Positions 5,171 through 62,194 of a stretch of 64,000 bases of DNA are shown here, one piece after another. Source of the stretch: Eledone cirrhosa (Eukaryota); contig OZ024754.1 in the NCBI GenBank assembly GCA_964016885.1, positions 43,710,001-43,774,000 on the forward strand, read 5' to 3'. How positions within the stretch are numbered: position 1 is the stretch's first letter; each line of letters starts with the position of its first letter. Position numbers and translations under genes: made by a program. Under the pieces are notes generated by a model. The model ran no database searches, was not told where the DNA came from, and worked only from the letters and a program-made list of their open reading frames with translations.

Positions 5171-5265
5171 CATATAGAATGTTATCATTTAATTTGTATA
5201 ATGAATAAATAACATTTTCTTGTTATACTTGGGGAGGGTCATATTGTTGTAATAATATTGCCAGA

Positions 5266-5449
5266 AATAATTGTTTCTACTTTAGGCACAAGGCCAGCAA
5301 TTACCCAGTGTATTACTGGTACTTTATTTTATCGACCCCATAAGGATGAAAGGCAAAGTTAACCTCGGCGGGATTTTAACTCAGATCGTAAAGGGACGTA
5401 ACTATGCTAGAAAGCATGTCTAACCCTCTACTAATACTGCCAATTCACC
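5266..5449 (-). mobile_element. Nin/Deu-domain SINE (short form)
   Basis: Reverse complement of the family consensus (tactttattttatcgacccc..aggatgaaaggcaaagttaacctcggcgggat). Confidence 0.9.
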
Positions 5450-5594: not shown

Positions 5595-6063
5595 TGACCA
5601 GAAGTCGACCCTAAATATTACTAATAACTCTAGGAAAGCCATGAACGTCACCACATCTTTTTAACTTTGATTTTGAAAGTAGGTTTATAATTATCAATTT
5701 TCAGTATTCTTTTGTAGCTGTCTCGGTGGCCTAGCTGGAGGAATCATAGACGGTGGTGATCCTGGTCTGAAGTTCGATCCAGGTCGGGAGTAGGGTTCCC
5801 GGTAAACTTTTTCAGTGTTTTTTCTATGGGTTGTAAAATAAAAACTGAAAAAGTCTACATGCATTTCTTGACCAGGATTGAACTCAAGACCAGGATCTCC
5901 ACCATCTGTAGTACCTACCGTTGGGCCACAGAGACAACCACGAAATTCTTATGAAAATTCATACTTATAAACCTACTTTCAAAATTTTCAAAACAAAGTG
6001 TTGTGGTGTCGTTCGTGTCTTCCTTAATGTTATTGCTTCTACTTAGGGTCGACTTCTAAGTCA
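5595..6063. mobile_element. Fold-back element: two diverged ~230-bp inverted arms, each with a tRNA-like cassette
   Basis: agaagtcgaccctaa/ttagggtcgacttct, ttttgaaagtaggtttataa/ttataaacctactttcaaaa, gatcctggtct/agaccaggatc; A-box-like gtggcctagctgg and B-box-like agttcgatcc. Confidence 0.7.
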
Positions 6064-9886: not shown

Positions 9887-9888
<2 letters not shown>

Positions 9889-10043
9889 CGAAGGAAATGT
9901 GGTAAGGAACCAGATGGACCATAACGCACCAAAGTACTCAATACTTAGGGTAGTAGAGTGGGTAGAGTGGGTAATAGGAACGAGTAGGACCCCGACGGCT
10001 GAGCTCAAGCCGTTTCGACGGCTAATTCTGCGGAATTAGCCGT

Positions 10044-10045
<2 letters not shown>
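9887..10045 (-). mobile_element. Family A TA-embedded island (short fold-back, hammerhead 3' half, ACTC/GAGT hairpin)
   Basis: Near-identical to 61999-62194 and 47513-47711; 12-bp inverted arms 10017-10028/10033-10044; (TA)n on both sides. Confidence 0.85.
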
Positions 10046-13840: not shown

Positions 13841-14027
13841 AATTGGCAGTATCAGTAGAGGATGTGACGTCATGCTTTGCAGCATAGAGTTACGGCCCTT
13901 TACGATCTGAGTTCAAATCACGCCGAGGTTAGCTTTGCCTTTCATCCTTACGAGGTCGATAAAATAAAGTACCAGTAATACACTGGGGTAATTGCTGGCC
14001 TTGTGCCAAAAGTAGAAACAATTATTG
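13841..14027 (+). mobile_element. Nin/Deu-domain SINE
   Basis: Matches family consensus. Confidence 0.9.
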
Positions 14028-14611
14028 TTTGATATAAAACTCACGAAAGAAGAAGAAGAGGAAGAGGAAGAAGAAGAAGAAGAAGAAGAAGAAGAAGAAG
14101 AAGAAGAAGAAGAAGAGAAGGAAGTGGAGGCTGATGACTTAACGACAGACGTGTGGACAAGAGAGTTTTTTTACGAGACCGTGAAATAGAGATGGAGACG
14201 GACTGTGGCTTTTATTACAATGACAGTGATGCTGATGATGATGGTGATGATGGTGATGGTGATGGTGATGGTGATGGTGATGGTGGTGGTGGTGATGATG
14301 GTGATGGTGGTGAGGGTGATAGTGGTGATGGTGGTGGTGGTGGTGGTGGTGATGGTGGTGGTGGTGATGATGGTGAGAGAAGGAGGGGTGAGAGAAGGGA
14401 GGGAGGAAGGGCGGAGAGAAGGAAGGAAAGAGAGAAGGAGGGAGGAAGAGAGGGGGAGAGAAGGAAGGTATCCCCACACTGGAGAATTGGTTCAAATGTT
14501 TGCAACTGTGTAGACTTCCCTTAAAACACCAAAGGATCAGGTGGTGGTTTTAAACCAGGTGATTCGGATTGAGCGTGAAACTCAAATATATATATATATA
14601 TATATATATGT

Positions 14612-14771
14612 ACGTTATTCCGGGTTGAATCGGAGGTAACCACAGTAAGTAAGGTACTCAATACATAGCAGAGTATAACAGTTTTAATATAGATGAGATT
14701 CTACAGGACTAGAACTGTTTCATATGAATGAAACAGTTCTAGTCCTGTAGAATCTCATCTATATTAAAACT
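14612..14771 (-). mobile_element. Family B TA-embedded island with a perfect 44-bp fold-back
   Basis: Arms 14680-14723/14728-14771; homologous to 45319-45445, 45490-45593 and 35331-35385. Confidence 0.85.
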
Positions 14772-31750: not shown

Positions 31751-31977
31751 AAAAGTTCTATTTAAATTGTTGGGATACAACAAGCAAATATTTTTATAAA
31801 TGATATAAAGCACTCAACAAATAATTGGAGTAAAAATACGATATTAACAAATGGAAACTATATTTATAAAACCATATTTATTTCATTATACATATTTCAA
31901 GTTGGTGTCCTTGAAATATGTATAATGAAATAAATATGGTTTTATAAATATAGTTTCCATTTGTTAATATCGTATTT
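31751..31977 (-). mobile_element. Family F TA-embedded island with a perfect 68-bp fold-back and the ACTC/GAGT hairpin
   Basis: Arms 31834-31901/31910-31977; minus-strand ACTC-CAA-TTAT-TTG-TT-GAGTGC at 31810-31831. Confidence 0.75.
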
Positions 31978-32033
31978 ATATATATATAATATATATATAT
32001 TATATATATATATATATAAATATATATAATATA

Positions 32034-32159
<126 letters not shown>

Positions 32160-32177
32160 TATATATACACATATATA

Positions 32178-32240
<63 letters not shown>

Positions 32241-32270
32241 AACAAAAGATGGTTAAAAGAGTTCCATGTA

Positions 32271-32337
32271 TTTTATTATGCGCATTTCAAAAACAAATAT
32301 CATCATGCAATAATATTTGTGTTTTCATCAGATAAAA
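32271..32337 (-). ncRNA. Inverted copy of the same hammerhead motif
   Basis: Reverse complement of 32416-32482 with one substitution in stem II. Confidence 0.8.
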
Positions 32338-32415
32338 CAGGAGGACATGATATGAAGGTTAAAATCAACTGCACTATCCACAAGTGTTTTTTAGCCTTCA
32401 TATCATGTCCTCCTG

Positions 32416-32482
32416 TTTTATCTGATGAAAATACAAATATTATTGCATGATGATATTTGTTTTTGAAATGCGCATAATAAAA
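32416..32482 (+). ncRNA. Minimal type I hammerhead ribozyme motif
   Basis: Stem I TTTTAT/ATAAAA; core CTGATGA; stem II ACAAATATTAT/ATGATATTTGT; GAAA; stem III AT-GCGC-AT (palindromic); AUA cleavage triplet. Confidence 0.85.
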
Positions 32483-32607
32483 TACATGGAACTCTTTTAA
32501 CCATCTTTTGTTCTTATATATTATGTATACTCCAGTCCTACAAACTGTAGAGTGCTTCTTATCCGATATCTGCATTGCTTTATTGTACTACAATAAAACT
32601 CACCTCC

Positions 32608-32671
<64 letters not shown>

Positions 32672-32746
32672 TATATATAATATATATATATTATATATAT
32701 ATATAGATATATATATATATAGATATATATATATAGATATATAATA

Positions 32747-32838
<92 letters not shown>

Positions 32839-32992
32839 TATATTATATATATATATAATATGTAGTATATATAGTATATATATATACAGATTATATATAT
32901 ATGTATATAAATAACATACCTATATATATATATATGCGTGTGTGTTTTTGTATATGTATGTCTGTGTTTACGATTGTGTCTGTGTCTATGAT

Positions 32993-34026: not shown

Positions 34027-34218
34027 GGCGGTAGATTGGCAGTATCGGTAGAGGGTCGGACGCCATGCTTTGCAGCATAGTTACGTCCCTTTACGATCTG
34101 AGTTCAAATTCGGCCGAGGTTGACTTTGCCTTTCATCCTTACGGGGGTCGATAAAATAAAGTACCAGTAATGCACTGGGTAATTGCTGGCCTTGTGCCTA
34201 AAGTAGAAACAGTTATTT
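34027..34218 (+). mobile_element. Full-length Nin/Deu-domain SINE (short form)
   Basis: Matches family consensus. Confidence 0.92.
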
Positions 34219-35302: not shown

Positions 35303-35330
35303 AATATTAAACAAAATTTAATAGAGCAGT

Positions 35331-35385
35331 GGCTTATACAGGACTAGAACTGTTTCATTGGAAGGAAATCATCAGGATCAAACAG
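35331..35385 (-). ncRNA. Family B hammerhead-like motif
   Basis: Minus strand CTGATGA-TTTCCTTCCAAT-GAAAC-AGTTCTA-GTCCTG; stem I poorly paired in this copy. Confidence 0.55.
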
Positions 35386-41581: not shown

Positions 41582-41786
41582 TGACTAAAGACATTTTAGC
41601 TTGAGTGTGGGGTTTAGAATCCTCCAAGAAATGGAAAAAGATGAGTATTGAGGTACATGGGAGTCGAACCCACATCTTTGGTTATCCAGACCACTGTGCT
41701 ACCGTTACACCAACACATTAATACTCATCTTCTTCCATTTCTTAGAGGGTTCTAAACCCCACTATCAGGCTAACATTTCTTTGTCA
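41582..41786. mobile_element. MITE-like element with ~65-bp imperfect TIRs enclosing a tRNA-like cassette
   Basis: gtggggtttagaa/ttctaaaccccac, aagaaatggaa/ttccatttctt, aagatgagtatt/aatactcatctt; minus-strand A box TGGTGTAACGG (41702-41712) and B box GGTTCGACTCC (41660-41670). Confidence 0.75.
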
Positions 41787-42531: not shown

Positions 42532-42704
42532 GTAGAGGGTCGGACGCCATGCTTTGCAGCATAGAGTTACGTCCCTTTGCGTTCTGAGTTCAAATCCCGC
42601 CATGGTTTGCTTTGCCTTTCATCCTTACGGGGTCGATAAAATAAAGTACCAGTAATACACTGAGGTAATTGCTGGCCTTGTGCCAAAAATAGTAACAATT
42701 ATTT
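42532..42704 (+). mobile_element. Nin/Deu-domain SINE
   Basis: Matches family consensus. Confidence 0.9.
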
Positions 42705-45281: not shown

Positions 45282-45445
45282 TGTTTCATTCGGGAGAAAT
45301 CATCAGGAGGACCTGGACCTGATGATTTCTCCCGAATGAAACAGTTCTAGTCCTGTAGAAGCCATTTCTATATTAAATATTTATACTCTGCTATGTATTG
45401 AGTACCTTACTTACTGTGGTTACTCCCGATTGAACTCAGGGTTCA
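45282..45445 (+). mobile_element. Family B island with a 26-bp fold-back, hammerhead-like core and ACTC/GAGT hairpin
   Basis: Arms 45282-45307/45318-45343; GGAC-CTGATGA-T-TTC-TCCC-GAA-T-GAAAC-AGTTCTA-GTCC (45315-45353); ACTC-TGC-TAT-GTA-TT-GAGTAC (45385-45405). Confidence 0.85.
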
Positions 45446-47512: not shown

Positions 47513-47517
<5 letters not shown>

Positions 47518-47711
47518 AAAAAGTATAACCCCGACGGCAGAGCTCAAGCCGTTTCGACGGCTATTTCTGGACAGTCCAGAAATAGCCGTCGAAACGGCTT
47601 GAGCTCTGCCGTCGGGGTCATACTTTTTCCTATTTCCCACTCTACTACTCTAAGTATTGAGTACTCTGGTGCGTTATGGTCCATCTGGTTCCTTACCACA
47701 ATTCCTTTGTT
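47513..47711 (+). mobile_element. Family A island with a 60-bp fold-back
   Basis: Arms 47513-47572/47574-47633 (1 mismatch); ACTC-TAC-TACTCTAA-GTA-TT-GAGTAC; (TA)n on both sides. Confidence 0.88.
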
Positions 47712-49850: not shown

Positions 49851-49872
49851 AAAAAGATATATATATTTGTAA

Positions 49873-50062
49873 AATAATTGTTTCTACTTTAGGCACAAGG
49901 TCAGCAATCACCCCAGTGTATTACTGGTACTTTATTTTATCGACCCCCGTAAGGATGAAAGACAAAGTTAACCTCGGCGGGATTTGAACTCAGAATGGCA
50001 AGGGCCGTAACTCTACGCGTCAAAGCATGGCGTCCGACCCTCTACCGATACTACCAATCCAT
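49873..50062 (-). mobile_element. Nin/Deu-domain SINE
   Basis: Reverse-complement consensus match. Confidence 0.92.
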
Positions 50063-57083: not shown

Positions 57084-57410
<327 letters not shown>

Positions 57411-61998: not shown

Positions 61999-62000
<2 letters not shown>

Positions 62001-62194
62001 CGAAGGAAATGCGGTAAGGAACCAGGTGGACCATATAACGCACCAAAGTACTCAATACTTAGGGTAGTAGAGTGGGTAATAGGAACGAGTAGGACCCCGA
62101 CGGCTGAGCTCAAGCCGTTTCGACGGCTAATTCAGTCCAGAATTAGCCGTCGAAACGGCTTGAGCTCAGCCGTCGGGGTCCTACTCGTTCCTAT
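61999..62194 (-). mobile_element. Family A island with a perfect 55-bp fold-back
   Basis: Arms 62079-62133/62140-62194; (TA)n on both sides. Confidence 0.88.

What the first reader, a model, noticed from the sequence alone, without database searches (positions are those of the whole stretch)
32233..32520. Intact minimal hammerhead present on both strands through a 130-bp fold-back
Seen: 32416-32482 has a complete core (CUGAUGA/GAAA), a 6-bp stem I, a long stem II, and a 2-bp stem III capped by palindromic GCGC with an AUA triplet; the mirror copy is at 32271-32337. Established: minimal PLE hammerheads with palindromic loop III self-cleave mainly as dimers. Inference: this is the best candidate for an active ribozyme. 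A read-through transcript would instead fold into long dsRNA that masks the ribozyme and could be a Dicer or ADAR substrate.
Basis: partly seen in the sequence, partly recalled or inferred. Interest (0 to 1): 0.75.

Follow-up and report, generated by a model that had tools for sequence, protein, structure and literature searches.

The report
Back-to-back Penelope-like ends carrying hammerhead ribozyme
Two back-to-back copies of a very common animal repeat, likely the cut-off end of a Penelope-type jumping gene, each carry an intact hammerhead self-cutting RNA motif; this layout is already published, and RNA read across both copies is predicted to zip into a long double strand that would not cut.

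Summary
A type I hammerhead (32414-32484) is mirrored on the minus strand by a 132-bp fold-back; no shuffle gave a match of that quality. The insertion runs on to 32610 and lies in (TA)n. It is one copy of a high-copy repeat whose core is invariant and whose listed stem changes nearly all keep pairing. It has one short and one long end, and a tail hairpin also seen in a published Hydra-clade element. This fits a 5'-truncated, head-to-head Penelope-like insertion. Opposite-strand hammerhead pairs and inverted truncated copies are published (PMC4209133, PMC8557442), and the scan noted this pattern before on other DNA of this genome. The motif is predicted to need a partner: the lowest-energy dimer is the double hammerhead. 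But the two copies here are sense and antisense, so they cannot be that partner pair on one RNA; read-through buries both. Unusual points: a 15-bp stem II with a family-wide mismatch at pair 4. No parent ORF, expression or cleavage was shown. New member of a known kind; interest low.

The parts
31978..32232 (.). (TA)n tract left of the insertion (likely target)
32233..32364 (-). Short arm: inverted, 5'-truncated copy of the repeat, read on the minus strand, ending in (TA)n; its outer end is blurred by TA microhomology (equivalent to 32515-32521 of the long arm)
32269..32339 (-). Hammerhead motif, minus-strand copy; keeps the family C at stem II pair 4 (position 32321); predicted cut between 32277 and 32276
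32365..32366 (.). Inversion junction: two bases that belong to neither arm in register; they match the family's upstream sequence if a 27-nt stretch is deleted (1 in 16 by chance)
   Evidence: loose ends
32367..32610 (+). Long arm: 5'-truncated copy of the repeat; 32367-32388 forms the loop of the fold-back
   Evidence: family depth along all of it, loose ends upstream of 32367
32414..32484 (+). Type I hammerhead motif: stem I, CUGAUGA, 15-bp stem II with pair-4 mismatch and A-U closing pair, GAAA, 8-nt palindrome 32468-32475, predicted cut after 32476
   Evidence: family covariation
32522..32610 (+). 89-nt tail present on the long arm only
32529..32553 (+). Bulged tail hairpin (RYTC-stem-loop-stem-TN-GARY) just past the short end
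   Evidence: same shape by eye in Hydra-2_Amil
32579..32597 (+). Second small hairpin in the tail (8 bp)
32611..32930 (.). (TA)n tract right of the insertion (likely target)

Best explanation
32233-32610 is a single insertion into a (TA)n tract of two head-to-head, 5'-truncated copies of a high-copy hammerhead-bearing repeat, likely the 3' end of a Penelope-like element of Hydra type or of a non-coding rider on one, and the ribozyme likely works in the parent RNA as a dimer while this copy is predicted to be masked by its own antisense arm. Likely route (inferred): the element's endonuclease nicks both strands of the TA tract; reverse transcription starts at two preferred sites on the RNA, one 33-39 nt past the hammerhead and one about 90 nt further; both copies stop about 25-50 nt upstream of the hammerhead and are joined head to head. 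Shown: sequence, family status, invariant core, end geometry. Predicted: dimer fold, masking. Inferred: parent element, insertion route, cleavage.
For: High-copy family: 3,598 contigs in X1, 5,052 reads in X24, 32 contigs in X6 laid on 32363-32610. 0 of 12 core positions vary among the 40 listed variant rows; 10 of 11 variants at paired stem I/II positions keep a pair on their own, and the 11th (U32464C) matches A32429G at similar frequency. The family continues upstream of 32367 and many copies end in (TA)n at 32519-32529, where the short arm ends. This junction is not bridged by any listed contig in X2-X5, while other copies fold back or abut (TA)n a few bases upstream, so the inversion is per insertion. 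Five of 8 fold-backs of the window have one short and one long arm, and in 5 of those 5 the tail hairpin starts 3-8 bases past the short end; 10 such hairpins against a shuffled mean of 1.65, maximum 7. The same hairpin lies 39 nt behind the hammerhead of Hydra-2_Amil (by eye); three Hydra consensus sequences end 30-40 nt behind theirs. Published: inverted 5'-truncated copies, one-sided tails, (TA)n targets, and a hammerhead on both strands in Penelope-13_HM (PMC8557442); opposite-strand pairs 100-700 bp apart (PMC4209133); cleavage and extension of both target strands and two internal start sites in vitro (PMC11167929).
Against: No RT or GIY-YIG hit in 86 of 114 frames scanned and no genome was held, so the parent is not identified. 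The motif differs from the 26 Hydra rows of File S2 (stem II 3-7 bp there, 15 here) and closes stem II with A-U where PMC4209133 reports a highly conserved G-C. The tail (89 nt) is longer than the published 30-40 nt. The A>G versus U>C asymmetry in stem II is 6 of 12 against 1 of 12, p=0.07, and RNA editing could also give it; variants are unphased and 3 rows were not shown. G32470U breaks the palindrome in 1,182 of 2,640 X24 reads, nearly all from one end position. With the tail included, stem I of the long arm is predicted to lose to other folds (probability 0.007). The junction was not seen in any independent run.
Confidence: 0.8

Rival explanations
1. The family is a non-LTR retrozyme: a non-coding unit of a few hundred bases that cuts itself out of tandem arrays, circularises and is inserted by Penelope-type enzymes. 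This changes the parent, not the reading of the locus.
For: No coding trace in the 244-nt long arm; high copy number; retrozymes are proposed Penelope derivatives (10.64898/2026.07.22.740005); earlier scan notes describe such units with inverted arms in this genome. The last 20 bases of the long arm loosely resemble the family's upstream loose end (by eye).
Against: No head-to-tail joint among the 3 joints listed; upstream loose ends (297 reads, median 57 nt in X24) fit nothing in 32363-32610 at 85%; one unit only in the window. A monomer longer than 250 nt is not excluded.
Confidence: 0.35
2. The second arm arose by snap-back of one cDNA on a 3-bp mini-hairpin at the junction, followed by a 27-nt deletion, and not by two priming events.
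For: The junction can be read as the family's upstream sequence folded back, with a deletion between AAA repeats; both arms share minority alleles such as T32511; other copies fold back at a palindromic hexamer 10 nt upstream.
Against: Only 2 junction bases are informative (1 in 16 by chance). The short arm stops at a family-preferred end, not at random. The arms differ at 32394, a site that is polymorphic in the family (A in 631 of 807 X24 reads), which two templates would explain.
Confidence: 0.3
3. This locus is itself an active two-strand ribozyme or a regulated hairpin RNA gene (siRNA or ADAR substrate kept by the host).
For: Both cores are intact. A transcript starting at about 32340 or later would free the hammerhead (stem I probability 0.2-0.87). 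Penelope inverted repeats give siRNAs in Drosophila (PMC3681739); octopus has very high hyper-editing of repeat dsRNA (PMC5625713).
Against: Intact cores are expected of a young copy (arms 2 of 132 different). The junction is not shared among the runs laid. The arms show no run of A>G changes.
Confidence: 0.07
4. A MITE or fold-back DNA transposon with terminal inverted repeats and TA target duplications.
For: Inverted arms flanked by TA.
Against: The family runs on past both ends of the inverted part, depth falls more than tenfold at the junction (X2: 54,152 against 668,549 and 875,379) and no listed contig bridges it.
Confidence: 0.03
5. An assembly or sequencing fold-back artefact.
For: The junction was not found in the 8 runs laid; one of them, X21, laid no reads at all.
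Against: The arms differ at 2 sites, one a family polymorphism; the short arm ends at the family's preferred end; flanks differ; four other families' worth of fold-backs in the window share the geometry.
Confidence: 0.03

Closest known systems
Minimal and palindromic-helix-III hammerheads of metazoan Penelope-like elements (Cervera and de la Pena 2014, PMC4209133; parts 1-2 of 4 read)
   Same: Type I order, intact core, short palindromic helix III, long helix II, covarying families, dual motifs on opposite strands 100-700 bp apart from truncated elements.
   Different: Helix II is 15 bp against 7-8 bp in S. mansoni; no extra base between positions 9 and 10.1; A-U at 10.1-11.1 in this copy (G-C in a minority of the family); helix I is 6-8 bp.
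Hydra clade of Penelope-like elements, e.g. [quoted passage not shown] 2021, PMC8557442; passages, supplement parts 2 and 52)
   Same: (TA)n target, hammerhead near the 3' end, end 30-40 nt behind it, inverted 5'-truncated copy giving a hammerhead on both strands (Penelope-13_HM), A at the cut site in 12 of 26 rows, tail hairpin in Hydra-2_Amil.
   Different: No ORF linked here; stem II 15 bp against 3-7; even 8-nt palindrome in helix III; 89-nt tail against 30-40; three short motifs of this family had 0 hits in that supplement.
Metazoan non-LTR retrozymes (PMC7229834, passages; bioRxiv 10.64898/2026.07.22.740005, part 1 of 5)
   Same: Short, AT-rich, non-coding, high-copy, type I hammerhead.
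   Different: No head-to-tail units seen; head-to-head layout; no circular RNA shown.
PAc (Poseidon of Anolis), in vitro (Frangieh et al. 2024, PMC11167929; parts 1-2 of 4 read)
   Same: Two internal start sites define a tail; both target strands are cut and extended; AT-rich target.
   Different: Other clade; its hammerhead overlaps the ORF start and cleaved only with protein; head-to-head products were not shown in the parts read.

Membership tests
Type I hammerhead ribozyme | Core C3-A9, G12-A14, A15.1-U16.1, H17 in order | tested here: met
Type I hammerhead ribozyme | Stems I and II supported by comparative data | tested here: met
   10 of 11 stem variants keep pairing, the 11th likely compensated; unphased
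Type I hammerhead ribozyme | Stable helix III as a monomer | tested here: not met
   probability 0.0008; 8-bp helix only in the dimer
Type I hammerhead ribozyme | Match to an Rfam hammerhead model | tested here: not met
   none at gathering score or among 33 matches at E<=10
Type I hammerhead ribozyme | Site-specific self-cleavage | not testable with these tools
   needs in vitro assay
Penelope-like element | RT plus GIY-YIG ORF | tested here: inconclusive
   none in the insertion or in 86 of 114 window frames; the parent copy could not be searched
Penelope-like element | 5' truncation with inverted copy and one-sided tail | tested here: met
   tail longer than published
Penelope-like element | Hammerhead near the 3' end and microsatellite target | tested here: met
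Hydra clade | RT phylogeny and C-terminal endonuclease | not testable with these tools
   no linked ORF
Hydra clade | Hammerhead dimensions as in File S2 (stem II 3-7 bp) | tested here: not met
   15 bp against 26 rows
Non-LTR retrozyme | Head-to-tail tandem monomers | tested here: inconclusive
   no such joint; a longer monomer is not excluded
Non-LTR retrozyme | Circular RNA expressed | not testable with these tools
   no RNA run was available to lay
MITE or fold-back DNA transposon | Whole inverted unit repeated as one element | tested here: not met

The most novel reading that the evidence does not exclude
These head-to-head copies are the fixed product of Penelope-type insertion: both strands of a TA tract prime reverse transcription at two set sites marked by a conserved tail hairpin, so each truncated insertion carries its own antisense arm and feeds dsRNA silencing or editing of its family; and the 15-bp stem II with a kept C at pair 4 is an undescribed dimer-type hammerhead variant whose mismatch is a contact or protein site.
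Probability: 0.3. Interest if true: 0.5.

Novelty: new member of a known kind. Interest (0 to 1): 0.22.

Why it matters
The locus itself is likely an ordinary fossil insertion. Its value is as one clean example: a young, intact, dimer-type hammerhead with an unusually long stem II that can be assayed, and a one-short-one-long head-to-head layout that bears on how Penelope-like elements form inverted ends and tails, which PMC8557442 names as an open mechanistic task.

Tried and rejected
No whole genome was held, so no copy count or parent search. Rfam: no hammerhead hit; the below-threshold miRNA matches are AT-rich hairpin noise. Pattern scans found 0 matches in metagenome contigs and viral contigs. 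No RNA holder listed among 24 runs: no evidence either way on expression. X21 laid 0 reads, so no test. The X4 record laid in two pieces is the plain family sequence seen through the palindrome, not the junction. Pfam on 86 of 114 frames gave 3 sub-cutoff hits, none RT or endonuclease; 28 frames were left out as mostly repeat-derived. The bacterial promoter scan does not apply to an animal genome and was ignored. A scrambled (non-circularly permuted) hammerhead, noted elsewhere in this genome, was considered and rejected: the order here is standard. Look-ups of earlier findings near the locus, by sequence and in relatives were empty. Lunse et al. 2017 (PMC5785218) is not held; its variants may include long stem II forms, so the long stem may already be in print. 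A search for 'long stem II' with hammerhead, retrotransposon and genome found 0 papers; 'octopus, Penelope, hammerhead' found 5, of which 4 were listed and none describes this family in title or abstract. Supplements of PMC4209133 and of the bioRxiv preprint were not seen and may bear on novelty.

Full report
Setting. The window is repeat-rich animal DNA: 47% is masked as tandem repeat, and a dispersed repeat of about 185 bp recurs throughout. Rfam finds one tRNA-like match and nothing else. Earlier scan notes call the genome an octopus; I did not test that. No whole genome was held.

The observation. The fold-back has arms of 132 bp, a 24-nt loop and 2 mismatches, and folds at z -34. My descriptor finds only the two mirror copies in the window. 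It found 5 loose and 0 comparable hits in 150 shuffled windows and 0 in 10,000 shuffles of the arm. The folding energy of the motif alone is not unusual, and Rfam's hammerhead models miss it.

It is a copy of a large family. The stretch is held in part by 20 of 24 listed runs from 15 studies, 6 of them with half its words or more. Laid on 32363-32610 at 85% likeness, X1 gave 3,598 contigs, X6 32, X24 5,052 reads, X21 none. Among the 40 variant rows shown (3 more not shown), none touches the 12 core positions; position 7, which is free in hammerheads, does vary. Of 11 variants at paired positions of stems I and II, 10 keep a pair with the window's partner. The 11th, U32464C (278 of 1,588 X24 reads), matches A32429G (233 of 1,118), which would turn the closing A-U into G-C. 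These variants are unphased, and the excess of A>G over U>C (6 of 12 against 1 of 12, p=0.07) could also come from RNA editing. Pair 4 stays a mismatch: C at 32432 in 1,046 of 1,119 X24 reads and nearly all X1 and X6 depth, with no listed change opposite. The plus copy has lost this C; the minus copy keeps it. One change against the model: G32470U breaks the palindrome in 1,182 of 2,640 X24 reads, though 1,141 molecules end at one place, which points to a single over-sampled locus, and X1 and X6 do not show it.

The insertion is larger than the finding and asymmetric. Family depth runs to 32610, where (TA)n resumes, so the right arm carries an 89-nt tail that the left arm lacks. Many family copies run into (TA)n at 32519-32529, where the left arm stops, and the family continues upstream of 32367 with sequence absent here. 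Both arms are thus 5'-truncated, joined head to head, with the hammerheads pointing outward. In X2-X5 no listed contig bridges the junction (the longest pieces are shown; 935 more are not), depth in X2 falls from 668,549 and 875,379 on the arms to 54,152 there, and loose ends show other copies folding back or meeting (TA)n a few bases upstream. The inversion is therefore made per insertion, not carried as a unit. The same results mean that the junction has no independent confirmation.

The window repeats the pattern. One search lists 8 fold-backs; by eye 7 hold whole or partial hammerhead cores, from about five sequence families. Five have one short and one long arm. I tested it: 10 hits in the window against a shuffled mean of 1.65 (maximum 7 in 100), and in 5 of those 5 fold-backs it starts 3-8 bases past the short end, here at 32529. 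By eye the same hairpin lies 39 nt behind the hammerhead in the published Hydra-2_Amil consensus; Hydra-1_Crog has a near match; Hydra-1_Amil, Hydra-1_Obim and Hydra-1_Ajap end 30-40 nt behind their hammerheads with no such hairpin, the distance at which the short arm ends here (33-39 nt).

Can it cut? As a monomer helix III is predicted not to form (probability 0.0008). The eight bases 32468-32475 are self-complementary, and the lowest-energy structure of two plus copies is the double hammerhead, with open cores, at -33.5 kcal/mol against -11.0 for one monomer. Two minus copies keep the 8-bp helix but have a misfold of one core at -33.7. With the tail present, stem I is predicted to be outcompeted (0.007). 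In a transcript that crosses the whole insertion, on either strand, the antisense arm is made first and pairs with the sense arm; stem I probability is about 1e-61, and it recovers only for starts at about 32340 or later. The two copies cannot serve as each other's dimer partner on one RNA. Published relatives cleave little: a single S. mansoni minimal motif showed none and dimers low activity (PMC4209133); the Anolis motif cleaved only with protein and was not needed for insertion in vitro (PMC11167929). So the motif is likely functional in the parent RNA, and this copy is likely silent as a ribozyme.

Mechanism. A snap-back of one cDNA plus a 27-nt deletion also fits the junction, on only two informative bases. 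If host transcription crosses the locus, the 132-bp duplex would be a plausible Dicer or ADAR substrate, as for inverted Penelope copies in Drosophila (PMC3681739 passages) and repeat dsRNA in octopus (PMC5625713 passages); nothing here tests it.

What is known. PMC4209133 (parts 1-2 of 4) reports dual minimal hammerheads on opposite strands 100-700 bp apart. PMC8557442 (passages; supplement parts 2 and 52 and searches) describes inverted 5'-truncated copies, one-sided tails, (TA)n targets, and lists Penelope-13_HM with a hammerhead on both strands. PMC8969392 (passages) and PMC6765202 (passages) repeat this. PMC7229834 (passages) and the 2026 preprint (part 1 of 5) cover retrozymes. Lunse et al. 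2017 was not held. Hammerhead numbering is recalled. What differs from the published sets that I saw is the 15-bp stem II (3-7 bp in 26 Hydra rows, 7-8 bp in S. mansoni), the kept mismatch at pair 4 and the 89-nt tail; earlier scan notes report the first two in other families of this genome. It works like a Hydra-type 3' end, but membership is untested because no ORF was linked.

Verdict. Real, well supported as a hammerhead motif, explained by a known element type. New member of a known kind. Interest 0.22.

Noticed in passing
window 31751-31977: Neighbouring fold-back of another family (68-bp perfect arms, 8-nt loop, 83-nt tail) in (TA)n, holding only the 3' half of a hammerhead and the same tail hairpin at 31831 (minus strand).
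   Followed up: partly
window 14610-14771, 45282-45435, 35308-35376: A family with a Hydra-style hammerhead (extra base after position 9 and before G12, 4-bp stem III); two copies are fold-backs truncated at or inside the motif; the left arm at 45282 abuts the dispersed 185-bp repeat.
   Followed up: partly
window 47513-47710, 62000-62194, 9888-10044: A family with a GUC hammerhead 3' half and a palindromic loop III; two copies fold back inside stem II, with tails of 77-79 nt.
   Followed up: partly
window 57152-57280: Symmetric fold-back between (TA)n tracts with a degenerate hammerhead core (C in place of the expected CU) and no long arm.
   Followed up: no
window 32394 and 32359: The two arms differ at a site that is polymorphic in the family (A in 631 of 807 X24 reads), a hint of two templates or of an edited template.
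   Followed up: partly
window 5600-6057: Long imperfect palindrome (72% over about 460 bp), more like an old TIR or MITE element; no hammerhead seen.
   Followed up: no
window 41582-41786: Imperfect palindrome enclosing a tRNA-like match (Rfam tRNA 41649-41719, minus strand, 39.5 bits).
   Followed up: no
window 15066, 38863, 45525: Three further tail hairpins outside the fold-backs scored; they may mark more element ends.
   Followed up: no
window, e.g. 5265-5445, 13842-14026, 34035-34218, 42532-42704, 49872-50059: A dispersed repeat of about 185 bp in more than ten copies at 80-90% identity, SINE-like.
   Followed up: no
run X24, joints 32367 to 32477, 32517 and 32580: Other family copies show strand switches with one side at 32367; 32477 is the base after the predicted cut, but only 3 reads show it.
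   Followed up: no
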